This document shows, piece by piece, positions 27-56,826 of a stretch of DNA of 64,000 bases. The DNA lies in IMG/VR virus record IMGVR_UViG_3300036770_007999, positions 1 to 64,000 of that record; one strand, 5' to 3'. Both the position numbers and the translations under genes were made by a program. This DNA is from a virus. The first letter of the stretch is position 1. Each line of letters begins with the position of its first letter. The notes below the pieces were generated by a model, which saw nothing but the letters and a program-made list of their open reading frames with translations, did not search any database and was not told the DNA's origin.

Positions 27-119
27 GGAAGAGTTAGCCGAATCGGCATAGCGGCAGCGGTCTTGAAAACCGAAGGCTCAGAAATGGGTGTGTGAGTTCG
101 AGTCTCACCTCTTCCACCA
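27..119 (+). tRNA. tRNA-Ser (anticodon TGA), long variable arm
   Basis: Acceptor GGAAGAG/CTCTTCC, anticodon loop CT-TGA-AA at 62-68, GTTCGAG T-loop, encoded CCA. Confidence 0.95.
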
Positions 120-133
120 CGACGGAGATGCAA

Positions 134-241
134 ATGAAAACCATAGCCGGTTTGTTTTTGTTCACAGCAATTTTAATTGGAACGGGCGAAATGTTAGGTT
201 GTTTGACCCTTACAGATCCCTATTCTACATGGTGTGATTAG
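134..241 (+). CDS. 35-aa hydrophobic peptide MKTIAGLFLFTAILIGTGEMLGCLTLTDPYSTWCD
   Basis: GGAG at 124-127 before ATG 134; the open frame fills the spacer between two tRNAs; not in the supplied ORF track. Confidence 0.5.
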   Translation: MKTIAGLFLFTAILIGTGEMLGCLTLTDPYSTWCD

Positions 242-330
242 GAGAGTGGGCAGGATGGTAATGCAGCTGATTGCTAATCAGTAGATTCACGAAAGTGGGT
301 CACAGGGTTCGACTCCCTGACTCTCCACCA
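241..330 (+). tRNA. tRNA-Ser (anticodon GCT)
   Basis: Acceptor GGAGAGT/ACTCTCC, anticodon arm GCTGA-TTGCTAA-TCAGT, long variable arm, GTTCGAC, CCA. Confidence 0.95.
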
Positions 331-334
331 AGTA

Positions 335-411
335 CGGTCCTTAACTCAGTGGAGCAGAGTGCCTGTCTTCGAAACAGGAAGTCGGCGGTTCAAATCCGTC
401 AGGACCGGCCA
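335..411 (+). tRNA. tRNA-Arg (anticodon TCG)
   Basis: Acceptor CGGTCCT/AGGACCG, arm CCTGT-CTTCGAA-ACAGG, GTTCAAA, CCA. Confidence 0.95.
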
Positions 412-433
412 CAAGTAAATAACCAAGGGAGGC

Positions 434-907
434 ATGATGCCACAGATAGATCCACGAGAAGTAGAACACTATGTGCGGGGGTTGGGTCCTGACACACGCA
501 TCTACCTTGGGGCAGATTCTGAACGTTTCAAGATCGATCGCCAATGGTGGGCTGAATACACCACCGTGGCCGTTATCCATCGCAACGGCAACAACGGTTG
601 CAAAATATTCGGCGAAATGGATCGCCAACGAGATTACGACCAGCGATACAATCGCCCCAGTCTGCGTCTCATGAACGAAGTTTACCGTGTCGGAGAACTG
701 TTCCAACGTCTGGCACCTGTGCTGGCGGACTGGCCTATAGAAGTTCATCTGGACGTCAATCCCAATGAGATGCACGGTTCCAGTTGTGTGGTACAACAGG
801 CTATCGGCTATATCCGAGGTACATGCAATGTCATACCCCGGATCAAGCCTCTGGCCTTTGCAGCTTCTTACGCGGCTGATAGACTCAAAAGCGTAAGAGC
901 AGCCTAG
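434..907 (+). CDS. RNase H-like YkuK (DUF458) family protein
   Basis: Motifs IYLGADS, RLMNEV, EVHLDVN, KP.AFAASYAAD; GGAGG RBS; TAAATA at 416-421. Confidence 0.8.
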   Translation: MMPQIDPREVEHYVRGLGPDTRIYLGADSERFKIDRQWWAEYTTVAVIHRNGNNGCKIFGEMDRQRDYDQRYNRPSLRLMNEVYRVGELFQRLAPVLADWPIEVHLDVNPNEMHGSSCVVQQAIGYIRGTCNVIPRIKPLAFAASYAADRLKSVRAA

Positions 908-911
908 ACCA

Positions 912-985
912 GCGTCCGTAGTTTAGGGGCAAAACGCCACGTTGCCAACGTGGGGTCGAGAGTTCGATTCTCTCCGGACGCTCCA
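912..985 (+). tRNA. tRNA-Gly (anticodon GCC)
   Basis: Acceptor GCGTCCG/CGGACGC, arm CCACG-TTGCCAA-CGTGG, U73, CCA. Confidence 0.95.
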
Positions 986-993
986 GATCAATT

Positions 994-1069
994 CCGTCCA
1001 TAGCGTAGTGGATGACGCAGATGTCTTCTAAACATCTATACGGGGGTTCGATTCCTCCTGGACGGGCCA
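994..1069 (+). tRNA. tRNA-Arg (anticodon TCT)
   Basis: Acceptor CCGTCCA/TGGACGG, arm GATGT-CTTCTAA-ACATC, GTTCGAT, CCA. Confidence 0.95.
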
Positions 1070-2570: not shown

Positions 2571-2735
2571 ATGGCCATGAAACTCTGGGAAGCCACTGTC
2601 CGCCAGCCAGGTCCTGGCACTGCGGAAATTCGGGTGCGTATCGGGGCCGAAACCGCAGAAGAGGCACGCAGGTTGTTGCAACAGTTACACGGTCCAAGAT
2701 CGGTGCCTTATCTGCCCAGACAGGTACCGCAGTAG
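2571..2735 (+). CDS. 54-aa hypothetical protein (MAMKLWEATVRQ...PRQVPQ)
   Basis: Hand-translated; starts 2 nt after the upstream stop and ends immediately before the tmRNA promoter. Confidence 0.65.
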   Translation: MAMKLWEATVRQPGPGTAEIRVRIGAETAEEARRLLQQLHGPRSVPYLPRQVPQ

Positions 2736-2747
2736 TAAATAGTAACA

Positions 2748-3034
2748 TCGCTGTATGAAGCGAAGCAAAATGTGTTCTGGACGCGGGTTCGATTCCCGCC
2801 CGGTCCACCATAAGCATGTTCTTTGAGGTCTTGGTCGTTACCAGCGTGGCGAAAACGGCGACAGAGCATGCTTATGATGGGCCGGATCTGGTTTCGACAG
2901 GGCAAGCAGTAGCAGAGTGGACAGCGGGGTAGGCGATGACCCTAAATCAAGCAAAACCACAAACGCCAACGACGAGCGTTTCGCACTGGCCGCTTGAGCC
3001 TGCTGAGGGTGGAAGCCCGAGAAACAGAACTTCC
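2748..3034 (+). ncRNA. ssrA: Circularly permuted (two-piece) tmRNA, tag ANDERFALAA
   Basis: T-arm and ACCA end (2779-2810) come before the GGGCCGGATCTGGTTTCGAC 5' end (2879); G3:U70 pair; tag ORF 2965-2997; outer boundaries are approximate. Confidence 0.93.
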
Positions 3035-3062
3035 AAAGCCCGCTCTGGCGGGCTTTTTTTTT
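3035..3062 (+). terminator. Intrinsic terminator of the tmRNA
   Basis: AAAGCCCGC-TCTG-GCGGGCTTT followed by a T run. Confidence 0.9.
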
Positions 3063-3132
3063 GACTACAAAATCTCAAGATAAATACTTCTACAGCAACG
3101 CCACATCCTGTGACGTCGGACCAAATCGACGC

Positions 3133-3226: not shown

Positions 3227-4567
3227 TTGGATCTACCTCTCCTGTTGGCCATGCTGAGTGGCTGTGGCATCGGCATAGTGATCGGCCTGTTTCCGGGCTT
3301 TTCGGTATTGGCCGCGATGCTGATCCTGTTTCCGTTCCTGTCTTCGCTGGATGCCATGTCAATACTGGTATTCTATGCGGCACTGATGACTTCGGCCCAG
3401 TACTGCGGCAGTATCACGGCCACATATTTCGGTGTGCCTGGCGAGAACACCAGCCTGGTGGCCAGCAAAATTGGTTATCGCATGCATACCAGAGGTTGCA
3501 CCAACTTGGCTATTGGCAGCGCGTCAGTGAGCAGTTTCTTGGCCTCGGCGGTGGGTCTGGCACTGATGTGGTTGATCTCACAGCAACAACAACTGTTCAG
3601 CGGATTCTATTCGGTCAAGATCCAGTTGGCCGCCATGCTGTTTGTGGCAGTGTTCCTGCTGATCTACAGCGGCAACAGGATTGCGCACAACACCTGGATG
3701 ATACTAGTAGGTGCCCTGCTGGGTGCCATTGGCTCACATCCTATACAGGCCTATTCTCTGACCTTGCAATGGGATCTGTTGGGACCGGGCCTGTCCATAC
3801 CACTGGTGCTGACCTTGTGTTTCGTGATCCCAAATCTTCTGAGATACCAAAACCGCGGCGGTGCCATCACCAACCCGGCGACCCGATCCATAGACCGATA
3901 CTGGACAGCGCTAATCCTGTGCTGGCGCAATCGCTGGTCGGCCTTGCGTGGCAGCGTGATAGGCAGCGTGATCGGACTCATGCCCGGCGTGGCCATCCTG
4001 GCCAGCAGCACCTCCGCCTATGGGGCCGAACGGCGCATAACCACGCGCAACACAGCGCATCTCATGGCCGCGGAAGCTGCCAACAACAGCGCAGTGGTCA
4101 TGTGTCTCATGCCCTTGATCCTGTTTGGTGTGCCTGTGATCGCCAGCGAATCCATGGTACTGAGTCTGTTGTTGCAACAAGGTGTGCAAATCAACTTGCT
4201 ATGGATGCTGCAATCATACACTGCCGACCTATCTCACCTGGACATCTTGATGCTGACATTGATTCCAATCAATGTGCTGATGTTGATCATGGCATGGCCA
4301 TTGTCGCGCGTGTTGATATCGGTGTACAGCCGCATCCCGATGTGGTGTATGACCAGCGTGATATATGTGGTGTTAGCGGCCGTGATCGTGGCAGATTCTC
4401 TTGCCAGATTGAGTTGGCAAACCGATATTGCCAGTTTGATTGTGCTAGTTCCATTATGCTGGATCATGATCCGTCACAGGCACGATGGGTTACCGTTGGT
4501 GTTCAGTTTTTTGTTGGCTGAACACGTGATCGGTTTGTTAGTAGTAATGAGTGATTTATACTTTTAA
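3227..4567 (+). CDS. tctA: Tripartite tricarboxylate transporter TctA-family permease
   Basis: Polytopic and hydrophobic; GLFPG, YCGSITA...GVPGE, GSVIGLMPG and AAEAANNS..PLILFGVP motifs. Confidence 0.88.
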   Translation: MDLPLLLAMLSGCGIGIVIGLFPGFSVLAAMLILFPFLSSLDAMSILVFYAALMTSAQYCGSITATYFGVPGENTSLVASKIGYRMHTRGCTNLAIGSASVSSFLASAVGLALMWLISQQQQLFSGFYSVKIQLAAMLFVAVFLLIYSGNRIAHNTWMILVGALLGAIGSHPIQAYSLTLQWDLLGPGLSIPLVLTLCFVIPNLLRYQNRGGAITNPATRSIDRYWTALILCWRNRWSALRGSVIGSVIGLMPGVAILASSTSAYGAERRITTRNTAHLMAAEAANNSAVVMCLMPLILFGVPVIASESMVLSLLLQQGVQINLLWMLQSYTADLSHLDILMLTLIPINVLMLIMAWPLSRVLISVYSRIPMWCMTSVIYVVLAAVIVADSLARLSWQTDIASLIVLVPLCWIMIRHRHDGLPLVFSFLLAEHVIGLLVVMSDLYF

Positions 4568-4580
4568 AAAGGAAAAAGCA

Positions 4581-5471
4581 ATGAAAAAAATATACAATGT
4601 TGTGGCCGGTCTGCTGTTGCAGATTCCACTGTTGGCCTGGGCACAAGGAGTGACCTACTTCAGCATGACCAATCCAGACACACCTCATCTGTCAATCACG
4701 GCAGGCTGGATCAAGGACATAGAACAAAACATGCCCATAGACTGGAAAAAAGGCCTGGGCTGTGGTGGCAAAAGGAACGTGGTCAATCATGATGGACCCA
4801 TGTTGGTAGAGATACCTTCGGGCCGTATGTGGTCCAGCCTGCATGACGGCAATGAAGACTGCCTGTTTGACTGGCGACCCAAGACCATCGTGAGCCTGTT
4901 TTCCTATCCGTTTGACATGTGTGTCAAGGCCGACAGTGCTATCCAGACCTTCCAAGACTTTGCTGCCGCCACATCGGTCAAGATTGGCTATCCCACTGCC
5001 ACCACCAATGCCTACTGGGTCAATGCCTACAACGCCCATAACCGTACCCAGCATCGTGGTGTGATGTTCCGGAGCAGCGGTCTTGCCCTGCTGGGTCTGT
5101 TGTCCGGTGACATCGATGTGGCCATCATGGCCAATCTCGTGAGCCAGAACCAAAAAAACGCGCAAAACATCAGGTGCTTTGCCACCACAGCACCCAACAC
5201 AGCCACCAGCCTGTCCAAGTTGACCCCTTACATCCCGCAGCAGATCAACGAATTCCAGCAGACTTTCGCGCTGTTCGCCAGCAATATCACTGAGAGTAAT
5301 CTGGCGAGCATCCAAGACTCGGTGCACCGGTCCGTAGTGGCACTCAAAGACAAACTGCCTGCATCAGTGACTTTCGCAGTGGTAGGCAAAAACATCTCAC
5401 CTGATGAGGCCAAGGCTTTTTATCAGACCAATGTGGAAGACCTTGCCGTGGCCACGAGAAAACTGCAATAG
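4581..5471 (+). CDS. TctC/Bug-like periplasmic substrate-binding protein
   Basis: Signal peptide ending AWA-Q; ALLGLLSGDIDVA motif; adjacent to tctA. Confidence 0.7.
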   Translation: MKKIYNVVAGLLLQIPLLAWAQGVTYFSMTNPDTPHLSITAGWIKDIEQNMPIDWKKGLGCGGKRNVVNHDGPMLVEIPSGRMWSSLHDGNEDCLFDWRPKTIVSLFSYPFDMCVKADSAIQTFQDFAAATSVKIGYPTATTNAYWVNAYNAHNRTQHRGVMFRSSGLALLGLLSGDIDVAIMANLVSQNQKNAQNIRCFATTAPNTATSLSKLTPYIPQQINEFQQTFALFASNITESNLASIQDSVHRSVVALKDKLPASVTFAVVGKNISPDEAKAFYQTNVEDLAVATRKLQ

Positions 5472-38313: not shown

Positions 38314-38362
38314 GTTGTTGCTCCGTCCTATCTGTATTTATGCAACTGTAATCTACCCATAT

Positions 38363-39139: not shown

Positions 39140-42100
39140 TCAAAGTCCGCGTATAAATCTAGCCGCCAGGGTTTCTGTTTCCTGTAGTGGCACACCGTCG
39201 CTGGCAGTATTGATACCGGGCCGGTACCAACTTTCACTACGGCGTACCCTGATACTGACTTGGTATCCTGAGTCTGGTGCTGTGGCAAACACTATGGTCA
39301 CTGGATCACTGCCGGTCACAGTGTAACCCGATGTCTGCAGGATGCCACCAACATAGACCTCTACTGCCTCTACCAGTTCTGTGGAATCTAGATCAGTGAT
39401 CACGATGCTTTCTGCTACAAACAGTGTCTGCGTGCCATCTGCTAGAAAATTGTCAAAAACCACTCTATCCTGATATTCCGCTGGCAACAAATTGCCTAAA
39501 CCGATGTCGTACACGGCCGTACCCGCGGCATGTTCTGCCGCGCCTGTGCCTGCTGTGCCTCGGCGCAGGCCGCTGATGGTGTTGTTCACAGTGTCTCGGT
39601 TGCGATAGGCTATGCGCTCGCCATTGATGGTTATCAATCCAAATATGCCCTGCGGCAGATTGGGTTCACTCAATCGGCTGGCATCCTGCACGTAGATCGT
39701 GTCTCCTTGTGCTGCCAAACTTTGTGCCAGCACTGTGGTGGTGTCTGGTGTGATACGGTATGTGCCTTGAGTACCACGCATGTCTTGGAATATGCGGAAC
39801 GCAAGGGCGTTGGGTACCACACTCTGTGTGAAACTGGTTATGGCCACCACGTCTGCGGGGCCAATCACTGTGCCCAGCAAGATTACCCGGGTTCCTTCTA
39901 CCACGAAGCCTGATCCTTCGAACAGATAGAAACCATTCAAAGTCACTTCAATTCGGCTTGCGTTGACGATGTCACGCCCTGTGTCAAATTCATTGGTCTG
40001 GATCACAGATCCTGTGCCAAAATCAAACGATCCGGGGGTGTCGGACACCGTGGCTTCGTCGTACAGCGTGGTGTCGTAGCCTTCGCTGATCTGGATACCG
40101 GTGGTGGTGGGACCCACAAAAACTTGTGTCAGTATGTTCTGTTCTCGGGTGTCATTGAACGTGGTCACGGTCAGGACGTCGCCAAACAAAGGCAGGATGC
40201 TGCTGCCGGATCGGAACACAAGATTAGTACCAGAGATAAAGTAACCAGCAGCATGGTTGACGGAAATCAAGACTTGTGAGCCTACGTCTGGAAGATCGGT
40301 CAGTGTTATGGTACGATCTGTGCTGCCATCGTCAGGATCCACTTGGTAGTCGACGCCCTGTGTCAAAGGTTCACCGTCTAAGTACACAGATACTTCGTTG
40401 TCTGCTATAAGACTCTGATCGTAGCCACCACGCGTGGGCAAATAGTATTGCAGGCTAGATCCGTCTGCGATATACTCCACACCTTCAGCTGGACGCACCC
40501 GCCGCCCATTGACCTCAACAATGATGTTGACAGGATTGGTACCTTGGAGGCTGTTGTCCAAGGGGAATATCAAGGTGCTGCCGTCACCTATGTCGTTCTG
40601 TTGCACCGGCGCGCTCCAGGATCCCGAACCTGCGCCCAGGGCAGTAACGGCCACATAATCGGTGACAGTGAGCGTTTGACCAAACACGATATTGGTAGCG
40701 AAGTTGCCTGAGGCCGAGAAAGTAAAGTTGTCTGTGGGATCACCGTTGATGAATATGGCAAATTCAGATATGAGGCTGGTCTGTACCGGCACAGTGATGG
40801 TGTTGTTGGGTTGTGTGCCGGTATAGGCCTCGCGGAAGATCTGATTTCCACCGCCCAGACCGTATATCTGTATGGCTATCACATCACCCGCATTGGCACC
40901 TGAGATCACGCGCAGGGTGTGTGCTACCCAATCCACAACATAATCTTGGTCCTCTATCAACTGCACGCCGTTGGTGATGTTGTACACCATGACCATGACC
41001 AACATGTCTACTTGGTCTGCAAAACTTAGATCGGCGTCTGCAGATGTGTATTCATAGTTGATCTGGCCAAGAGCGAATCCATGTCCGTCGCCTAACCAGT
41101 CGCCACCGGGCGTGGTAAACACACGGAAGTCCAGAGTGTCGAATATGGCACCCGGTACCAGTTCTTCAGGCGCATGGCTGGAGTAGGTGTCAACGAAGGC
41201 GCCGCCGGCCACTGTGATGGCATTGGCTGGACCAGTGGTAGGAGGATCACCGTTGTAGGCCGGAGCAGGCAAGGTACCCAGATAGGGATCAGTGAACTCG
41301 CTTTCATAGATCGCATCCAGGATCGCGGGATCGTATGTGGGTTGGCCCTCGGGTCCGATGGAGATGTTATCAAAAGGATTGATGTCGTAGTTGCCCACAT
41401 CAAATCCGGTGTTCTGATTGAAATTGGGACCACTGACCTGCACACCTGGATAGTCTACACCCGATATCAACAAGGCCAGATCCAGTCCAGGTTCGTTCAC
41501 CGTGGGTGCATAAAAGCCCATGGTGCGATCCACACCACTCAGCGTGGCAGCATCTACCAAGGTCCAGTCCTCGGGATCAAAAGTCGCGGTTTCAACTGCT
41601 GTGCTGTCGTCGCTGCTGGCAGACCACACTCGGTCTTGATAGCGTACCTGCGTGCCATTGTCATACTGCACATTGGGCTGCCAATCCACAATGGTGGTCT
41701 GGTATTGATAACGGTCATATCGCAGGGTAGTGGTAAATTCTCTGATCTTTTGGTTGCCCATCACTGCCACGGCCCTGGCACCGGTGCCGTTGCCACCTTC
41801 CAGCGTAATTAACGCTGTGGTCAGATAACCTTCACCAGGAGATACTACGTCTATGGCGATTACCTGTCCTGCGCTGTTGATACGAGCCGTGAGCACAGCA
41901 GGCGTTTCTGCTTCACCGGTGACGATCACCTGTGGCGGTACCGTATAGCCAGATCCCCCGTCTACCACTGCGACAGATTCTATGGTCAGCAGATAGTTCT
42001 GGAACCATTGATTCCATGGCAAGGTCTGCCAGATCGGACTGGTGCTGGGTGTGCTGGATGTAGTGCTCAAGGGATCATCGAGATTGTCGTCGAGCACTGG

Positions 42101-45100
42101 GCTGATAAACAAGTTCTGTGCGGAATCCCAGAAGGCCGGCACATCAAAGTCTGTCACAGTACCATCATACACATCATTGCCCTGATAGATCAGGTTGAAC
42201 TCACGGATCTGAGTATGATAGGGCTTGACTTCCTGGATGTAGTTCAACACGAAATCTTGGTTGTCCTGGCGATATATCTGGAACGGTTGCAGGTTGCGTA
42301 TCACATGATCCACGTCAATCAGGCTGGTCTTTGTGAGCCACAGCGGTGCTACCTGCTCGCTCAGTATGAAGTTGAACATCAGCACTAACAGACGATTGCG
42401 CTCTATGGCAAGATCATCGATGAAGATCTCTTGATTGATGGCCTGAATGATCCTTCGTGTTTCCGTCACGGGTTCTTGATCGAAATACTGCGCATCAAAA
42501 ACTTCCACGTCAAAACCAAACCTACCAATGCTGTAGTCCCAGATCTCCGGTGAGATAGCAATGGTTCCAGATTCTAGGCCTACTCGTGTGTACACACCGT
42601 CTTCAAACACGTAGATCTCGAATTTGCCTTGAGCATTGGCCGTGACCTTGACACTGCTGCCAGGTGCTACCGTGATGGTTTCCAGATCGCTGAAGTTGGC
42701 CACTTCAGCAGCGATCACTGTTAGTGGATCGTAACCAGGAGCATACCAATCAATGTATGACCAGTAGCGCTTGGTGTCATAGTTCTGCACACGCACCAGG
42801 GCCAGTGTGCGGCTGCCGGGGGCGGTACCGGCCTGTACTTCGTAGATGGTCCAGAGGCCATCGTTGGTTGCATCTGATTGCACCAAGTATAGGTAACCAA
42901 CGGGCACCTGTGCCAGATCTTGATAACTCAGTTCCGTATCATTGGCCACGCGTTTGTTCCAGGCACCGCTGCCTGCTGCTGGTTCTGGCTCTTCGCTGTC
43001 CAACAATGGAAAGCGCCTGGTTTCAGCCAAGGGTAAAGTAGCCATCACACGGTTGGCCGCCACCAAATAGTTTTCCAAGGCCAGGAACCTGTTGGCGAAT
43101 AGGCTCTGACGCGGCCGGAACTGGACGCCGTACAGTTCGCTGGGTGGTAGGAATGGATCTGGTACCAGGTTGCCTGCTATATCGACTCCGCAGAAACTGT
43201 CCTGCAGTTTGCGATACAGACTATCGGTAAGGAAGCCGTCGCCGCGTCCTTGCGGTATCAGTTGGTATTCAAGGTGTACAGCATCTTGATTGCGCTGCTG
43301 ATCGTATTCCACGTGCAACACTGTGTCTTCGGCCTGGATATAGGGCAGGCCGTTGTAGATGGCTATGGTGCTGGCATTGATGGGGGCGATGTAGGCGATG
43401 CCGCTGCTGCGCGGTGCTTCGATGTAGCGCGTGATGGTATCTACGCTCAAGGTTTTGCGGGCTGCTCGATCTACTGTGCGAATACCAGTGACCCAGAAGA
43501 AGTAGGTGGTCTGGAATAGACCTTGTGCATCTATGTTGCTGGTCACGCTGTAACTGTTGATGTCGCGCACAGTGCCTGGACCGGTGTACTGCGCAGGCGG
43601 CACTGTGCTGGAGATCCACTGGAACACTTCCACGGTGCTGCCAGGAAACAGTTGTCCCCAGCGCCGGCTGGCATAAACGATGTCATCCTGATTGGGATCG
43701 ATAAATCTGGCGTTGGTGGTGTTCCACCAGATCTGCCCCACCCGTGCCTGCGTCCAGGCATCTCCATAGTTGTTCACAGCACCCACGTTGTAGGCTGCCG
43801 GATCTATGGCGCCGATATAGTCCAGATTCTGACGAACAGCACCCAACACGCGACCCTGCAAGGGATCAAAGAAATCAAAATACTGTTTGCTGGATCCCAG
43901 GAATCGGTCATACATGAACACTGTGTTCAAAAGATCAACATCGACCACAGGAGTCTGCTGCCGGATCGCCTGCCAACTTGGTTCACGTGTGGCGTTCACG
44001 TATTCGATCATGGCTCCATAGTTTGCAGCACTGTCTCCGCTGTCATCACCTGGTGCCCCTACCAGGAGCACGCCGGTGGTATAGTCTATGGCAGAACCAA
44101 ACTGATCCAAGGGCGACAGCGCACTGTCATACAGTTGTTGACCAAACACAAACTGTCCGGGGTTATTCACGCTGGCATTGGCAGCAGGCAAGAAGTCATA
44201 GGTGTAGACCACTCCACTCTGTGTGACCGCATCCAGGAATTCTGTGCTGCGACCATCGAATATGGTAGTGTTGTTGTCAAAGGTACAAGGGTTGAATGCG
44301 CTGCCGTCCGGCGCTCCTACTACCAAGTCCACAGTGCTGTCACTGACAAACACTGTGGTTCCAAAATGGGAGTAGGATTGGGGGACAGGACTCGCGATGG
44401 TCTGCGTGTATACATAGGTTAGAATGCCTAGATCATCAAACACAGTTCCTGTACCAGGCATCACTCGCAGTTTGTTCAAGACTGGTGCAGCATCAAAGTT
44501 AGTCACCGACAGCACCAGTCTAGCCCCTATGATCCTGATCTTGCTGGGTGCCAAGGGTGCAGTGACAAAAGTCACTGTGTTGGTGTCGGGATCGTAGGTG
44601 TAGTTTGCGGGATCTGACTGCAGCACGTTGTCCACATAAACCAAAGTGGTATAGGTGTCTACGGCGGGTGCCGCATACAGTGCACCAGTGGAAAATTCCG
44701 TTGTGATGCCATCGGCATCGTAGTCTAGATCCTGTGTCAAAGACACAGTGACATTGGGGATGGCAGCGTCTCTGATGGCCTGGGCCATCACGGCCGACCA
44801 GTTTGTGGCCTGCCAAAAATCAGTGTCTGTGATGGCTGTGCCCGCGGGTACCGGAACACGAGCACGATACAGGCTTACTCCGCCCAGCAACACATAGTCA
44901 TCCACGGCGTAGGTCAAGGCGCTGTTGTGCGCGGCCACTATGGGCACTACCACGAATCTGTCATTGACACGCAGATAGTCGCCTGGAGACAGCACAGGAT
45001 TTGCCACAGGGCTGGTGGTGATGCCGTACACTCGGCTCTGATTCAGTTGATATTCCACGTGGCCGGCTTCGGGCAGCACGGCACCATCATAGGGTGCGCC

Positions 45101-48100
45101 AATGTAGAGGCTGCAGTCATTGATGCATTGGTCTACTGTGAAGCCATATTGACCACCTTGGAATGGTTCGGCATCTACCAGGGTCTGCACCAGGGAAAAC
45201 TGATTGGTTTCGATCACCAGAGTATCACCCACAGCAATGTCTGTGTCCAGTGTGACTGTGTTGCCGGCGATGCTGAATGTGCCTCCAATGTTGTCCTGTT
45301 CATTGAGCAGGAACTCCCCATTGAGTTTGACATTGATGGGGGCGCCAGGTAACGAAAGGCTCTGTACCGTGGTATAACTTAAAGTAGCCGCATTGGTTAT
45401 CTGGAAAGCCTGCACAGATCGATCGAACACATAGACCTTGCCTTCTTGGGAATCGGAACCAGGGGTGCCGATCAAGACCTGGCGTCCATCGGTAGTGGTG
45501 CTAACACTATGACCAAATCTGGCATCGGCTGCCAGGCCCGGCACAATAATCTCGGCTACTGGTTGCCAATAGTCAGTGGCCCGCACACGGATCTCTGTGC
45601 CCGAGGCCGGTGCTGTCACGAATGTGAGATCCAGTGAACTGCCCTCACCAAAGTCATAGTCATATTTGGGGCGCTGTATCACATTGTCCACATACACGGA
45701 AATGCTGTTGACCGATGTGGCGGAATATATGTTGTCCAAGGGAAAAACCAGGGTGGATCCATCACCGGTAAACGTGGCTGCAGAACGACGCGTAATGGCC
45801 ACAGTCTGTCCTGCAGTGGGTGTAACGAGCAGCACTACCGATGTGGCGTTGACCACGTAGTCCGTATTCAAAGTCTGTAACACATTGCCCACTACCACTG
45901 CCAACTGTGCACTGGTATCCACCACGACATGGTCCACATAGTTGAAACTTGCAGTGGTACCATCGGCCACATACTCCACTGATTGCTGTTGCACATCTAT
46001 GCGTCCATAGGCGTAGACACGGTTGCCTCCGGGAGCACCAATGTACATCCAGCGTTCGTCATTGCTGACAGTAACGCTGTATCCAAATTCGTCTGCGACT
46101 GTGATCTTTTCGTCCTGCGGTATCACCAAGATCTGATGCTTCACAAAGGCGTTAGACGTGGGTGGGTTGAATATCACCAAGGCATAACCATGATTGCTCA
46201 GGCTTTCCGGTGCACCAATCACGGCCCAGGTCTGGTCGCCCATGTCCATGCTAGAGCCAAAGCCTGCAGTGCCGGTGGTCAGCAGTTCGATGATGATGTT
46301 TTCAGAGTAAGCTTGTCCGGCAGTTTTCACATATGAGTAGACCACTCCGCCCGGCAACACACCCGGTGCACCCACCATGGCAGCAAGATTCTGGAAGCCT
46401 TGTGTTACCGCGGTGCCAAATCTGGCATTCTCGATCTGGATTTCTGGTTCGATCACCGTGGCCGGGGCAAAAGGATTGGTTTTTTCCAGCACGGTCCACA
46501 GGTCTTGACCGTTATTGTCCACCCACACTCGCGATCCTGATGACAGTTCACGGCTGTAAGATAGGTTCACCACGTCGCTGGCCTGGGCCACACGTGCGGT
46601 ATCCAGCGAGAATCCTACTCCGGATCCGGTTACTTCGGTCTGGCTGCCTAAGAAAACCAGGTTGATCAAGACTGACTGGAGACCAGGTACAGCGGCCACA
46701 CGATAGGTGCCGTCAATGGTAACATTGAAAAACTTGATAATGAGATAATCATTCACGCGAAGATTGTGTTGCCGCGAGAACTCTACCAATGCTCTGCCAT
46801 CAAGGTTGTCTGACACAGACAGTATACGACCGGGCACTTCACGCACACGATACACGTTCCAATCATGGGGGTTGCTCTTGGCCACCCATATTGTATTGCC
46901 CAGGGCCAAGTCTTGGATTTCTTGGTCAAGGCTGGCAGCAACAGCCACAGGATTTTCCAGATCAAACACTGTGTAATCTACGTCGTCAAGATTCACATAG
47001 CCAGCGGTGGGCAGGCTGTTTTCCGTCACGGGTGTGACTGTGGTAGGCAGCACATCAGGACTGGTAAGTCGTTGGCTGCTTTTCCAGATGTTCTGCAGCA
47101 GCACTGTCTGATCTGCTTCGCTGGATTGATCTGGTTGGATGATCTGGATCAGGCTGGGATCGCTGCGCAACAGGCTCTGATCCAGCAACAGTTCCACATA
47201 GTTGCGATTGGCAGTGGCTCCATAGGTGGCTTTCTGCATGGCCCACAGTTCAAATATGTCATACTGTGCTGTTTCTTTGCCGAGATCTGCAAAACTGAAC
47301 AGTTCTGCGGCCTGGCGTGTACCTTTGGTGCCCAGGAACTGCTGATAGAGATTGACCTGGCTCACATCATCCAAGTTCAAGGCCTGCATGTATTCGCGTG
47401 GTCTGAATCCAATCAAGCCATAACTGAATAGATCTACTTCAGTTTCTAGATTGGCATTGTACACGCTGTAGGCCGTGGCCAATTGATCGCTGGCATTGGC
47501 GGAGTTGGGCAACAGACCTTTCTGTATGTCGTCGTAGTCACTCTTTATCCATTCTGCGTAGTTGAATTCCTGTGAAGGCTGTATGATCCGGCTGGCCGAC
47601 CAGTATTCATTCTTGAACAGCACGATTTCGCCCTTGGCATACACACGATTTGGATCCCATTCTACGATGTTGTCTTCGTTGATCACGAAGCCAGGAGCAT
47701 CCACTGTGCCGTTCCAGTCGCCGGAAATCCAACCTGACACCAGCACACGATTCTGTCTGAGACCGGTAACGGGTTGATAGATCAAGTCAGCGAATGTGCT
47801 GACATTGTCTAGGACCACTAAATGCTCATAGGCTGTGAATCGCAGATTTAGATAATTGATGGTATTGGAACTCAGGCTGGTAGCCCGAAAGGTGTTGTCT
47901 ACACGTTCGATCACGAGATCCGCTGCCGGCAAGGGCTGGCGGTTCTGATTGAGGATGAGATTTTCTGGACGCAGAGTATTGACGCTGTCTACTATGCTGA
48001 GTGGCTGCGTAACAGATACTGAGGTAGCACCTGGGTTGAGATTGATGATGGTGCCAGGTGCCCAGCCTTGACCGCTCCAGTAAAGAAACTCTTGGCACAT

Positions 48101-51100
48101 CTGCAACCAGTTCAGAATGTAACCATTTTCTCTGGTGTCAAAAACAAAACCCTGCCTCTCTAACAACAATCCATAACTGTATAGGAAGTCGCACACACCT
48201 GTTGCTGTCTGGAAGGTATATCCGTAAGGCACCTGCACAACATTATCTGAATGGTCCAGCGCGATGCGCACTGTGGTACCACCGGCTGTGATCGGTATGT
48301 TGTTGCCATTGGGTCGGCTGGCCAAAATCTCAAAATAAGGTCTTGCAGTGCTATAACCATAGACCTGCCAACCCGTATCTGTGGCCTGTACCACTACGCT
48401 GCTGAACACACTCTGATTGAATGGTTGATTCTTGTACAGCAAGATCTGGTAACTTTCATCCGGTAACAGCAGGCTGGTGTTGAGACTGTTGGGGGTAGAA
48501 CGCTCAGTGAAGATCTTGAGATAGCGTTTGTCCGTGAAACCACCCACACGCCAACACAGGCGCATATCAGTATTGGCCAGCGTGGTCTCTAGCAGATCAG
48601 TGCTGTTGGCACCCAACTGTCTATTGTAATCAATGATCCAATCTATGTAACTGGCCCGGCTGACACCATTGCCGTATAGAGGCGCTATCTGTTTGCTGTC
48701 CAGACGATACCTGCCATCCCACACATACTGATCTAGATTTGCATCAAATTTGTAACGATCACGATCCACAAACAGACCAAAGAATTTGGCAGGCTTGGTC
48801 AGAGCCAACAGCCGCATCACAGCAAAAGGCCATGCGGAGGACGACCGCCAAACATTTTCTACTGGACCGTCGTCACCAAAGGTCCAGGATCGGCGGAAAC
48901 TGGTGGTATCATAGTTGCCAGTGGTTACTTCGATGGGCGGCAACAATTCACCTTCAGATCCTGCAGGAATCACACTGAGCAGATCAGGTCTTGCATACTG
49001 TGGCAGGATGTATTCACCGGCGGGATCTCGCACCAGGCCTTGGGCAAGATCTTCCCATAGCACCAAGTTGCCCGATGTATAAGGAGCCGGGCCATAGTAA
49101 TCCGACCACCATGCAGGTTCTTGGCTGAATCCCAACATCTCCCAGGGTTGGGTATTTGGTGCTGTAGTATCATAGAAAAAGTTATAGATACCTCGCCATG
49201 CACCCAACAAGGGCTGACGGTTCAATTTGTTAGCACTCTGGCTGTAATTCCAAGTGAATCCATCTTGTGCGAGATAGGTCTGGCTGGTGTAATCCAACTT
49301 GTTCCAGCCCACCCAACTCAGGAAGTCCGGCGCCAGGATTTCTGTGATTTCTGCCAAGGTATAATCGGTGGTGCGGAACTGTCCTGGAATCACCTCTGCC
49401 TCGCTCAGTGGTATCTCGCTCACGATCTTGATGTTGTTGAAGATCCTGGTCTCAAATTCCAACAGGACATCATCGCGATAATCTCCGAAGGCCACGGTGA
49501 TGGAGCCGTCATGTCCTCGGATCACCAGGGTGGGTTCAAGATAGGTAGTGTCAAGGTACATCTCGGGACGATAAGCAGGATACAGACCCATCTTGCTGGG
49601 TGTGTTGGGCACGAAACTGCCGTAGGTAGCAGAGAACTCGCGGATCTCGATCTGATCACCCACGGCCAATGGCACAGATATATCTATGGTGGCGCTGTCT
49701 ATGCCGACCGTGTATTCGTATCCGCGCACCAGGATGCGACCATTGAGATACACGTTCATGCCTTTGTAATTGCTGCTGGTATAATCGTAGGTTTGTACTG
49801 TATCAAACACTGATGTGCTGATAGGACTGTACACATACACTGTGCTGGTGTAATTTTCTCCAGACGGCATCATGTCTGACCAATAGAATGGGCTTACATT
49901 ATTGCGTCCCAGACCCATCTGGATTATGACATCATCCAAGACCTGGGTAGGTGTGGAGTTGATGAAATCGCCCTGTGCTGCCAGATTCATCATGCGTGCT
50001 TTGAATTTCTGATATTCACGACTGTTGAATTCTATGGCAGCCACTACTTCAAACTGTGGTTGGCGCAGGAAGGTACCGGCCAAGCTCAAGGGCGCGCTGT
50101 GCTGCACGATGTTGTCGCCATAGATCAGGATGTTTCCTAGATCTCTGGTGTTGTTGGCACCGTCAATGGGGCCCTGGATGTTGCGCAGATTCTGCCCGAT
50201 ACTCTGGTAATGATTGCGTATGCTGCCTAGAGTAAATGCGGCAGCATCTTGGTTGATGGCATTGTTTTCGAGGTTTAACGGCACCTGATAGAAGGCAACT
50301 GCGCTGGCCCGATTGCTGATGGCCTGCACTTCAATAATGGTGCCTACGGCCGGTGGTGATGATAGGTCGATCACAGTGCTCTGCCCCACAATGCTGTAGG
50401 CATAATCCGTGGGATCGATGAATTCGGTACCCAGGAAAATCTGCAGAGGAGCAAACACTGAGGTTTCGTCAATGGGCACATCCAGCACCAGAGGTTCATC
50501 ATCCCAGACAAAACGGAACACCTGGCGGCTGCGATTTTGTTGCGCAGCGGGCTGCCAACCTATGAGATCCGAGAAGGTCACACGATCGATGTATTGACGC
50601 ACAAATCCTGTGCTTACAGGTTCTGTAACGCTGACCGCATCTCTCACATACAGGAATGTGTCTGTGTAGAGATAGTTGTCAAACAGGATGTCGCCTACGT
50701 TGTTGAAGTTTAAGAAACGCAGAGCAAAGCCCAGGACCTGATCGGTGATCTGTGTCTCGCCCACGGCATATCCAAACAGCCGGCTGCCTGCAAAGGTAGT
50801 GCTGGGATAAACAGCACTGTCGCCCAGGCTGTGACCTTGCGAATCATAAACATCGAACAAGGGAGTCTGGTTCACAGATGTCTTCTGTTGCGATGGTATC
50901 CAGTTCACACCATCAAACCAAAAACTGAGACCTTGTTGGGTGTTGCCGCTGAGACATACCACAGTCTGATTGATCAGAGCCTGTCCCAGGGGTGCTTCAG
51001 TGAGATTGATGATAGGAATAGAATTAGGATCACCGTCGGGATCGATAAACTCTACCTGGTAAATTTTGTTACGCACATCTGGATCTATATCAGCCGCAAA

Positions 51101-56778: not shown

Positions 56779-56826
56779 TTGGTCTCACTGTGTCTTGTAT
56801 TTATCGCAGGTAAAAACTGCGCAGTT

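What the first reader, a model, noticed from the sequence alone, without database searches (positions are those of the whole stretch)
2736..3062. Phage-encoded, circularly permuted and minimised tmRNA
Seen: the acceptor piece (about 2748-2810, T-arm plus ACCA) precedes the coding piece (from 2879). GGGCCGG pairs with CCGGTCC, giving the G3:U70 alanine determinant. Inter-piece helices form at 2773-2779/2898-2904 and 2749-2754/2921-2926. A 68-nt intervening segment folds into a 14-bp stem (2809-2822/2863-2876). The tag ANDERFALAA is followed by under 40 nt before the terminator, leaving no room for the usual pseudoknots 2-4. Known: two-piece tmRNAs occur in alphaproteobacteria, some cyanobacteria and a Dechloromonas-related betaproteobacterial lineage. 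Inference: either captured from such a host or an independent permutation in phage; expressed from a TAAATA promoter to sustain ribosome rescue.
Basis: partly seen in the sequence, partly recalled or inferred. Interest (0 to 1): 0.85.

Follow-up and report, generated by a model that had tools for sequence, protein, structure and literature searches.

The report
Two-piece tmRNA gene in jumbo phage
A giant uncultured phage carries an intact-looking, rearranged ("two-piece") copy of tmRNA, the RNA that frees stalled ribosomes; the call is sound, but such phage genes are already catalogued and its small size is normal for its family.

Summary
Window 2749-3059 (+) is a circularly permuted tmRNA gene. 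Rfam beta_tmRNA scores 158 bits against a cut-off of 84 over the full model, and ARAGORN calls a permuted tmRNA with tag ANDERFALAA.

It lies in a jumbo myophage fragment (baseplate genes, tRNA cluster, about 22% complete). No integrase or SmpB was found in the 78 kb held.

Three corrections:
- **Not specially minimised.** Bacterial beta-type tmRNAs have the same short 3' tail, and a compact pseudoknot 2 fits there and covaries with Accumulibacter's.
- **Not an independent permutation.** It belongs to a widespread phage-borne subgroup: more than 120 IMG/VR contigs, plus cultured Stenotrophomonas phages already listed as "Permuted" in print.
- **Not simply copied from a host.** The 5' two-thirds is phage-type, while the tag and pseudoknot 2 resemble Rhodocyclaceae.

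The TAAATA box gains support. It ends exactly 7 nt before the RNA start in 14 of 71 relatives and precedes structural genes in this phage.

Expression and processing remain untested. This scan has noted phage two-piece tmRNAs on other DNA many times. Verdict: new member of a known kind.

The parts
2736..2741 (+). TAAATA box, candidate T4-late-like promoter core. The predicted transcript start is at about 2747-2749.
   Evidence: It ends exactly 7 nt before the first paired base of the acceptor piece in 14 of 71 distinct phage relatives, the window included. In the window, 9 of 14 TAAATA sites lie just upstream of gene starts on the right strand, including the baseplate wedge and tail-fibre-like genes. 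No sigma-70-type site was called here. Promoter function is inferred, not shown.
2749..2810 (+). Acceptor piece (62 nt). It comprises the P2c 5' strand 2749-2754, the P2a 5' strand 2773-2779, the T-arm 2783-2799, the acceptor 3' strand 2800-2806, discriminator A2807 and CCA 2808-2810.
   Evidence: Rfam alignments, ARAGORN, sequence, and covariation of P2c.
2811..2878 (+). Intervening segment (68 nt), expected to be removed on maturation. Its closing stem is 2811-2822/2863-2874, extended by C2809:G2876 and A2810:U2875. An inner hairpin follows, and the 4-nt leader UGAU 2875-2878 lies before G2879.
   Evidence: The fold gives z = -6.6. A closing stem is present in 79 of 84 distinct phage spacers, with compensatory changes at most positions. 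TGAT precedes the coding piece in 71 of 85.
2879..2964 (+). Coding piece, 5' part. It comprises the acceptor 5' strand 2879-2885 (G2881 is G3), the D-loop analogue 2886-2897, the P2a 3' strand 2898-2904, the P2c 3' strand 2921-2926 and the pseudoknot 1 hairpin 2927-2930/2939-2942, then single-stranded sequence up to the resume codon.
   Evidence: Rfam alignment. The distance from the 5' end to the resume codon is 86 nt, against a median of 85 in bacteria. Covariation is shown.
2965..2997 (+). Tag reading frame: resume codon GCC, peptide ANDERFALAA, stop TGA.
   Evidence: ARAGORN. The same peptide is encoded in Accumulibacter, Thauera and other Rhodocyclaceae, and in many phage contigs.
3007..3035 (+). 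Compact pseudoknot 2. Stem 1 is GGG 3007-3009 with CCC 3016-3018. Stem 2 is UGGAAG 3010-3015 with CUUCCA 3030-3035. The A-rich loop 3019-3029 holds ACAGAA.
   Evidence: The pseudoknot search scores 9; shuffled sequences reach 9 in 7% of trials. Accumulibacter phosphatis has one at the same offset after the stop, with the same loop motif and both stems changed: GGAC/GUCC and GUAGCC/GGCUAU.
3035..3062 (+). Intrinsic terminator: a 9-bp stem, a 4-nt loop and a T run. This is the 3' end of the coding piece.
   Evidence: Terminator scan and the last helix of the Rfam model.
27..1069 (+). Cluster of five tRNA genes (Ser, Ser, Arg, Gly, Arg) upstream on the same strand. This is the genomic setting of the tmRNA.
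   Evidence: ARAGORN and Rfam. In the relatives L102 and L111 the tmRNA also lies beside large tRNA arrays.

Best explanation
This is an intact-looking two-piece (circularly permuted) tmRNA gene of the betaproteobacterial type, carried by a jumbo myophage. It belongs to a widespread phage-borne subgroup.

Inferred mechanism:
1. One precursor of about 310 nt is transcribed, probably from the TAAATA late-type box, and ends at the terminator.
2. The acceptor stem and the spacer hairpin stack into one long helix.
3. Host RNase P cuts before G2879. Host tRNA 3'-end enzymes trim back to CCA2810, and the 68-nt spacer is discarded.
4. The 62-nt acceptor piece and the roughly 180-nt coding piece stay together through the acceptor stem and helices P2a and P2c.
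5. Host alanyl-tRNA synthetase charges the RNA through G3:U70. Host SmpB and EF-Tu deliver it to ribosomes stalled on broken mRNAs.
6. Translation resumes at GCC2965 and adds ANDERFALAA, a host-type degradation tag, and the ribosome is released.

The likely benefit is to keep ribosomes available late in a long infection.

Shown here: gene identity, anatomy, conservation of the structure, and phage context. Inferred: transcription, processing, charging, tagging and the benefit to the phage.
For: **Identity.** RF01850 scores 158.2 bits over the full model, RF04321 scores 140.4 bits, and ARAGORN calls a permuted tmRNA.

**Alanine identity and CCA.** G3:U70, discriminator A and an encoded CCA are read from the sequence.

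**Selection on structure.**
- P2c is 98.7% paired, with four columns changed on both sides.
- P2a is 99.7% paired.
- The spacer closing stem is conserved with compensatory changes in 79 of 84 relatives.
- Pseudoknot 2 is conserved against Accumulibacter with both stems changed.

**Selection on the tag.** Relatives encode tags of the form AN(D/E)xx(F/Y)A(L/I/M)AA.

**Phage context.**
- Baseplate wedge phrog_10646 at E 1e-279, baseplate hub and virion proteins.
- About 35% amino-acid identity to 350-kb Erwinia, Serratia and Yersinia jumbo phages.
- The record is an IMG/VR virus, 22% complete.
- A phage phosphoesterase gene lies directly upstream.
- A source-sample contig bridges that gene into the tmRNA without a difference (record 1).

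**Relatives.** All twelve sampled phage relatives pass the RF01850 cut-off at 102-158 bits.
Against: There is no expression or processing evidence. The only public runs holding the sequence are kept as assembled contigs, which cannot show RNA ends.

No SmpB was found in the 78 kb held, so the RNA must rely on the host's, and the host is unknown.

The middle of helix P2 has several non-standard pairs in the Rfam alignment. A thermodynamic fold of the two pieces does not recover P2c.

The second stem of pseudoknot 1 was not resolved.
Confidence: 0.85

Rival explanations
1. Chimeric origin. The tRNA-like two-thirds (acceptor piece, spacer, P2, pseudoknot 1) is the phage lineage's own. The tag plus pseudoknot 2 module was acquired by recombination with the ssrA of a Rhodocyclaceae host (Accumulibacter-like). 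This would retarget the phage tmRNA to that host's proteolysis system. It refines the best explanation rather than replacing it.
For: In the 5' part (153 nt), the best matches are phage contigs at 88-90%, and bacteria reach at most 77%.

In the 3' part (73 nt), sister contig L102 matches at 95%. The next 13 best are all Accumulibacter or other Rhodocyclaceae at 81-84%. The phage rows nearest in the 5' part fall to 56-70% there.

The tag codons are 94-97% identical to Accumulibacter. The 11 nt after the stop codon are identical to Accumulibacter phosphatis.

The AU test does not reject placing the window and L102 with the bacteria (p 0.169), although the best tree nests them among phages.
Against: The 3' part is only 73 nt. 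The shared tag peptide and a GC content higher than in most phage relatives (59% against about 45%) could produce the likeness by convergence, or by retention of an ancestral state.

At 81-84% identity this would not be a recent transfer. No formal recombination test was run, and the sample was drawn with one sequence pattern.
Confidence: 0.35
2. Decoy or inhibitor. The RNA titrates host SmpB or alanyl-tRNA synthetase to shut down host trans-translation, and does not tag proteins itself. This is what has been reported for the tRNA-like-domain-only RNA of mycobacteriophage DS6A.
For: Phage DS6A carries little more than the tRNA-like domain, and such a molecule inhibits tmRNA in E. coli (PMC4131195 and PMC11915505). 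No phage SmpB was found here.
Against: A full tag frame with a host-type C-terminal ALAA is kept across more than 100 phage relatives. The distance to the resume codon is kept at 86 nt, against 85 in bacteria. Pseudoknot 2 is kept by compensatory changes. A decoy needs none of these.
Confidence: 0.07
3. Passenger or attachment-site remnant. On this reading the gene is host ssrA DNA picked up by imprecise excision, or kept as an integration site, or it is host sequence joined in by misassembly, and it has no role in the phage.
For: tmRNA genes are common integration sites, and ssrA fragments occur in prophages (PMC9004378; PMC4383910 listed).
Against: The gene is complete, not a fragment. No integrase was found in 78 kb. 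Virion and other phage genes lie on both sides.

The 5' part is of the phage type. That type was not seen in any bacterial chromosome sampled, only on two tiny contigs of 887 and 1,071 bp binned into MAGs.

Neighbouring genes recur beside the tmRNA in related phage contigs: the omega-like gene in L102, the phosphoesterase in L007 and L111, and the ATPase and HNH genes in L081.
Confidence: 0.03

Closest known systems
Betaproteobacterial two-piece tmRNA (Rfam RF01850; Dechloromonas/Rhodocyclaceae lineage, Sharkady and Williams 2004, cited in PMC3985003 and PMC3968760)
   Same: - Same gene order and break point.
- Same acceptor stem with G3:U70, T-arm and P2 helices.
- 85-86 nt from the 5' end to the resume codon.
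- Identical tag peptide ANDERFALAA.
- One small pseudoknot after the tag, then a terminator.
- The full model is matched.
   Different: - It is carried by a phage.
- It scores lower: 158 bits against 169-296 for bacterial genes.
- The acceptor piece begins with a GUAUGAAG-type lead where Rhodocyclaceae have GUAAUUCCGG.
- The spacer is 68 nt against 4-42 nt in the bacteria looked at.
- The upstream box is TAAATA, where the bacterial model has TTGA...TATAAT.
Permuted tmRNAs of cultured Stenotrophomonas phages (Menderavirus: Mendera, Moby, Marzo, IME-SM1; and vB_Sm_QDWS359)
   Same: - Same phage subgroup features: the GUAUGAAG lead, a long stem-closed spacer ending in UGAU, permuted order, and a position next to tRNA genes.
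- Marzo passes RF01850 at 94.6 bits.
- These are already annotated as tmRNA in GenBank.
- Mendera and Moby are listed as 'Permuted' in Table S1 of PMC9004378.
   Different: - Only about 80% identity, over the acceptor piece.
- Different tags: VAANDDSYTVRIAA and ANDSVYAQAIAA.
- Different phage groups (160-kb T4-like and 62-kb siphophage) and different hosts.
- By the published distribution of two-piece forms those hosts have one-piece tmRNA. This was not tested here.
Two-piece ssrA of Methylophilales phage Melnitz and the pelagimyophages (PMC9004378)
   Same: It is a phage-encoded, complete, permuted tmRNA, proposed there to sustain the hijacked translation machinery. That paper counted 53 two-piece forms among 133 distinct phage tmRNAs.
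   Different: Melnitz's gene is of the alphaproteobacterial type and carries a glutamine riboswitch. Here the type is beta, and Rfam found no riboswitch in the window.
One-piece tmRNAs of mycobacteriophages (Bxz1 group) and the tRNA-like-domain-only RNA of phage DS6A (PMC4131195)
   Same: These are phage-borne tmRNA genes without a phage SmpB.
   Different: They have the standard gene order (Bxz1 group) or no tag frame at all (DS6A). Here the gene is permuted and has a full tag frame.

Membership tests
Two-piece (circularly permuted) tmRNA, beta type (Rfam RF01850 / RF04321) | Score at or above the curated Rfam gathering threshold over the full model | tested here: met
   RF01850 scores 158.2 bits against 84, model 1-331 of 331. 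RF04321 scores 140.4 bits against 47, model 1-213 of 213.
Two-piece (circularly permuted) tmRNA, beta type (Rfam RF01850 / RF04321) | Permuted order: a 3' tRNA-like half ending in CCA lies upstream of the 5' half that carries the tag frame | tested here: met
   ACCA ends at 2810 and the 5' strand GGGCCGG starts at 2879. ARAGORN flags the gene as permuted.
Two-piece (circularly permuted) tmRNA, beta type (Rfam RF01850 / RF04321) | Seven-pair acceptor stem with the G3:U70 alanine determinant, and a T-arm | tested here: met
   The stem is 2879-2885/2800-2806 with G2881:U2804. The T-arm is GCGGG/CCCGC with loop UUCGAUU.
Two-piece (circularly permuted) tmRNA, beta type (Rfam RF01850 / RF04321) | Inter-piece helix P2 holds the two RNAs together and is supported by covariation | tested here: met
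   P2a is 99.7% paired. P2c is 98.7% paired, has four columns with double changes, and falls to 27-39% when slid. The middle of P2 is only partly standard in the window.
Two-piece (circularly permuted) tmRNA, beta type (Rfam RF01850 / RF04321) | Tag reading frame with an alanine resume codon, a hydrophobic C-terminus and a stop codon | tested here: met
   GCC at 2965, peptide ANDERFALAA, TGA at 2995-2997. The peptide is identical to that of Rhodocyclaceae.
Two-piece (circularly permuted) tmRNA, beta type (Rfam RF01850 / RF04321) | Reduced pseudoknot set: one before and one after the tag (PMC3985003) | tested here: inconclusive
   Pseudoknot 2 is found, with compensatory changes against Accumulibacter. 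For pseudoknot 1, only the hairpin stem 2927-2930/2939-2942 was seen; it is fully paired in six rows without insertions or deletions and 72% paired in 52-53 MAFFT-aligned rows. Its second stem was not resolved.
Two-piece (circularly permuted) tmRNA, beta type (Rfam RF01850 / RF04321) | The precursor is cut into two mature RNAs that act in trans-translation with SmpB | not testable with these tools
   The public runs that hold the sequence are kept as contigs only. No SmpB was found in the 78-kb record.
Bacterial Rhodocyclaceae ssrA (a host gene recently captured) | Groups with the bacterial genes and shares their lead sequence and short spacer | tested here: not met
   In the tree, the 52 bacterial rows form one side of a branch (99/74, and 100% of bootstrap trees). 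The window falls on the phage side with L102 (100/98). The lead and spacer are of the phage type. The AU test leaves some room (p 0.169), and the 3' part is bacterial-like.

The most novel reading that the evidence does not exclude
Phage-borne beta-type two-piece tmRNAs form a virus-only lineage with three features. First, they have a stem-closed spacer ending in UGAU. Second, many have a T4-late-like TAAATA box set exactly 7 nt before the RNA start. Third, they circulate among phages, including phages of hosts that have one-piece tmRNA.

Within this lineage, the window's gene would be a chimera. It would have swapped its tag and pseudoknot 2 module with the ssrA of a Rhodocyclaceae host, so that phages adapt the degradation tag to each host by modular exchange.
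Probability: 0.3. Interest if true: 0.5.

Novelty: new member of a known kind. Interest (0 to 1): 0.28.

Why it matters
Phage tmRNAs suggest that ribosome rescue limits large phages late in infection. This example adds a clean jumbo-phage case with a host-type tag.

The broader pattern seen here is worth a focused comparative study:
- a virus-only subgroup;
- a positioned late-type promoter box;
- a conserved precursor hairpin;
- a possibly exchanged tag module.

That pattern could also help predict hosts from the tag. The single locus, however, changes nothing known about tmRNA. Standard tools already find it, and published surveys list its kind.

Tried and rejected
- **Independent permutation in phage.** Rejected. 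The full beta model, the break point, the spacer design and pseudoknot 2 are all shared with the bacterial genes.
- **ARAGORN's second call.** The unpermuted 'tmRNA' at 2644-2810 with tag AQTGTAVVNSNIAV reuses the same T-arm and overlaps the end of a protein frame. No Rfam model supports it.
- **Rival pairing in the thermodynamic fold.** GUUCUG 2774-2779 pairs with CAGAAC 3025-3030. Rejected: relatives with a different loop motif (ACCAAAA) keep GUUCUG, and phage Marzo changes P2a together with its Rfam partner instead.
- **Host inference from the neighbouring TctA-like gene.** No match at E 1e-40 in 151 sampled Burkholderiales genomes. This is uninformative.
- **Expression and processing from public runs.** All runs are contigs. 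The pile-up over 2740-3010 is from many relatives. The marine RNA run's 151-nt contig over 2754-2865 proves nothing.
- **A first pairwise alignment with arbitrary L102 coordinates** was meaningless.
- **The quick tree was unreliable.** A constrained tree scored 119 log-likelihood units better, so only the careful tree is used.
- **A MAFFT alignment mixing phage and bacterial rows** shifted P2c by one base and understated pairing at 67%. It was redone within the phage type.
- **A gene inside the spacer.** No such gene is present. A 38-codon frame starting at ATG 2816 runs out of the spacer into the coding piece, with no ribosome-binding site (read).
- **Unpublished genome G029.** It is one of the 151 genomes tallied. 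No specific claim rests on it.

Full report
**1. What is there**

ARAGORN calls a permuted tmRNA at 2718-3088 on the + strand with the tag ANDERFALAA. Rfam's betaproteobacterial two-piece model RF01850 matches 2694-3059 at 158.2 bits. The curated cut-off is 84, all 331 model positions are matched, and E is 7e-49. The general permuted model RF04321 gives 140.4 bits.

- T-arm 2783-2787/2795-2799.
- Acceptor 3' strand 2800-2806, followed by ACCA 2807-2810.
- Acceptor 5' strand 2879-2885. This gives seven pairs, with G2881:U2804 as the G3:U70 alanine determinant.
- Helix 2773-2779/2898-2904 (Rfam's P2a).
- Helix 2749-2754/2921-2926 (P2c).
- A 68-nt intervening segment, 2811-2878.
- The tag frame 2965-2997.
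- A terminator at 3035-3056 plus a T run.

The intervening segment together with the acceptor strands folds at -46.1 kcal/mol, z = -6.6.

**2. It is more than chance and is under selection**

It also finds 101 places in bacterial genomes.

Among 53 distinct phage-type relatives, P2c is paired in 98.7% of 318 cells. Four of its columns change on both sides, and sliding one strand drops pairing to 27-39%. P2a is 99.7% paired.

All twelve phage relatives that I passed through Rfam exceed the RF01850 cut-off, at 102-158 bits.

**3. The context is a phage**

The window is the first 64 kb of a 78,136-bp IMG/VR virus record that CheckV rates 22% complete. The evidence for a phage is:
- It encodes a baseplate wedge protein (phrog_10646, E 1e-279), a baseplate hub with tail lysozyme, and virion structural proteins.
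- The wedge protein is about 35% identical to those of 350-470-kb jumbo myophages: Erwinia pEa_SNUABM_47, Serratia BF, Yersinia fHe-Yen9-04 and Sinorhizobium Phosso.
- Five tRNA genes lie upstream.
- A phage-type phosphoesterase gene ends shortly before the tmRNA.
- A contig of the probable source sample bridges that gene into the tmRNA without a difference.
- Neither an integrase nor SmpB is found in the 78 kb. Because the record is a fragment, this does not show that the phage lacks them.

**4. 'Minimised' is a family trait, and pseudoknot 2 is present**

The window aligns to the end of the bacterial model with only about ten positions missing after the stop codon, 62 nt against 72.

Accumulibacter phosphatis has 40 nt between its stop codon and its terminator, and the window has 37. 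In both, this stretch forms a small H-type pseudoknot at the same offset, with the same A-rich loop (ACAGAA).
- Window: GGG/CCC and UGGAAG/CUUCCA, at 3007-3035.
- Accumulibacter: GGAC/GUCC and GUAGCC/GGCUAU.

Both stems differ between the two while pairing is kept. A strict search finds a pseudoknot scoring 9 or more in 43% of family members, against 7% of shuffled sequences.

Reviews state that two-piece tmRNAs typically keep only pseudoknots 1 and 2 (PMC3985003; PMC3968760). The gene is in fact longer than the bacterial ones because of its spacer: ARAGORN places the tag at position 248 here, against 183-221 in bacteria.

**5. A phage-borne subgroup, not a fresh capture and not a new permutation**

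Phage copies and bacterial copies differ consistently.

| Feature | Phage copies | Rhodocyclaceae copies |
|---|---|---|
| Acceptor piece starts with five pairing bases, then | GUAUGAAG | GUAAUUCCGG |
| Spacer length | median 82 nt | about 4 nt in Accumulibacter, up to 42 in others |

The spacer design itself is shared. Thauera has a 38-nt hairpin followed by UGAG. One small-genome betaproteobacterium (G068) has a 30-nt hairpin followed by UGAU.

In 79 of 84 distinct phage spacers a stem closes the spacer end to end, with compensatory changes at most positions. TGAT precedes the coding piece in 71 of 85.

In a careful maximum-likelihood tree of 132 rows, the 52 bacterial rows form one side of a branch (99/74, and 100% of bootstrap trees). 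All phage-derived rows lie on the other side. The window pairs with contig L102 (100/98) and is nested among IMG/VR rows.

The only 'bacterial' records with the phage type are contigs of 887 and 1,071 bp binned into MAGs.

Cultured Stenotrophomonas phages (Marzo L004, vB_Sm_QDWS359 L003) carry the same subgroup features.

Within Burkholderiales in the GTDB sense, only 4 of 151 evenly sampled genomes pass the RF01850 cut-off, so the bacterial form is confined to a small group.

The sample was drawn with one sequence pattern, which biases it towards close relatives of the window's T-arm region.

**6. A mosaic signal**

| Part of the gene | Best phage matches | Best bacterial matches |
|---|---|---|
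| 5' part, 153 nt (acceptor piece, tRNA-like domain, P2, pseudoknot 1) | 88-90% | at most 77% |
| 3' part, 73 nt (tag, pseudoknot 2) | L102 at 95%; the 5'-nearest phage rows fall to 56-70% | next 13 best are all Accumulibacter or other Rhodocyclaceae, 81-84% |

The 11 nt after the stop codon are identical to Accumulibacter's. Consistent with conflicting signal, the AU test does not reject placing the window and L102 with the bacteria (p 0.169).

This may mean exchange of the tag module with a Rhodocyclaceae host's ssrA. It could equally reflect the shared peptide, base composition (59% GC here against about 45% in the nearest phage rows), or retained ancestry. I rate the exchange reading at about one in three.

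**7. The promoter**

No sigma-70-type site is called directly upstream. The same is true in 14 of 71 distinct phage relatives, a sharp peak. Another 13 have a TTGAC-N-TAnnnT promoter there instead, and four follow a tRNA gene.

TAAATA is not over-represented in the window: 14 sites against 13.5 expected. However, nine of the 14 sit just upstream of gene starts on the right strand. These include the baseplate wedge gene (site at 56798, minus strand) and the tail-fibre-like gene (site at 38335, minus strand).

This resembles the T4 late promoter TATAAATA (consensus as cited in PMC9004378). It suggests late transcription starting at about 2747-2749. This is inference and no transcript was seen.

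**8. How it most likely works**

See the best explanation. Steps shown here are gene identity, anatomy, structural conservation and phage context. Steps inferred from what is established for tmRNA and two-piece tmRNA are (PMC11915505, PMC3985003):
- RNase P cleavage before G2879;
- 3' trimming to CCA2810;
- charging through G3:U70;
- delivery by host SmpB and EF-Tu;
- tagging with ANDERFALAA.

In the precursor, the acceptor stem, three of the four ACCA/UGAU positions and the 14-bp spacer stem stack into one helix. This brings both processing sites together. Whether a double-strand nuclease also cuts there is speculation.

**9. Novelty**

PMC9004378 counted 53 two-piece forms among 133 distinct phage tmRNAs. 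Its Table S1 lists Stenotrophomonas phages Mendera and Moby as 'Permuted'. GenBank records of Marzo, Bhz51, Yut2 and Yut3 annotate the feature as tmRNA. The 2025 tmRNA database holds 79 phage sequences.

Earlier notes of this scan describe the same kind of gene on other phage DNA many times, including two relatives that I reached independently as L123 and L019.

I did not find described, in the papers I could search:
- the clean phage/bacterium split of the beta type;
- the fixed-distance TAAATA box;
- the UGAU leader;
- the mosaic signal.

These are comparative observations on a biased sample, not established results.

**10. Verdict**

It is a new member of a known kind. Interest is low to moderate.

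Noticed in passing
window 3227-5471 (+): Directly downstream of the tmRNA the phage encodes a TctA-family membrane transporter subunit (Pfam PF01970, E 2e-53). Next comes a weak TctC-like receptor (23.1 bits, below the 27-bit cut-off). This is an unusual cargo for a phage. No close homologue (E 1e-40) was found in 151 sampled Burkholderiales genomes.
   Followed up: partly
window 416, 2736, 3081, 10745 (+); 38335, 38360, 39129, 56798, 57206 (-): TAAATA boxes lie 4-30 nt upstream of gene starts on the coding strand, including virion genes. They are probably this jumbo phage's late promoter core, often in the form (G/C)(C/A/G)(A/G)TAAATA.
   Followed up: partly
window 39140-53233 (-): A single open frame of 4,697 codons lies next to tail-fibre-like and baseplate genes. 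It was not examined.
   Followed up: no
L084 and L101 (IMG/VR contigs): Some phage two-piece tmRNAs encode very long tags of 28-30 residues. They look like two tag units in tandem, for example ANDDSF...ANDSRFALAA.
   Followed up: no
G003 (Azonexus MAG): C4:160906-161234 and C4:199718-200020: This bacterial genome has two full-length beta_tmRNA matches (283 and 205 bits) about 39 kb apart. The second may be prophage-borne or a duplicate.
   Followed up: no
L133 (887-bp contig, Cypionkella MAG) and L225 (1,071-bp contig, Flavobacteriaceae MAG): Phage-type two-piece tmRNAs sit on tiny contigs binned into MAGs of unrelated bacteria. This is most likely phage DNA mis-binned, and it is a trap for tmRNA surveys of MAGs.
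   Followed up: partly
L231 (genome G068, 2.0 Mb): A small-genome betaproteobacterium has a beta-type tmRNA (169 bits). Its lead (GUAUAUCUGG) and its 30-nt spacer ending in UGAU are intermediate between the phage type and the Rhodocyclaceae type. It is a possible clue to where the phage subgroup came from.
   Followed up: no
L081:12513-12557 (-): A COG2908 RNA motif (RF02939, 59.7 bits, just over its cut-off) lies about 500 nt from the tmRNA of a related 79-kb phage contig.
   Followed up: no
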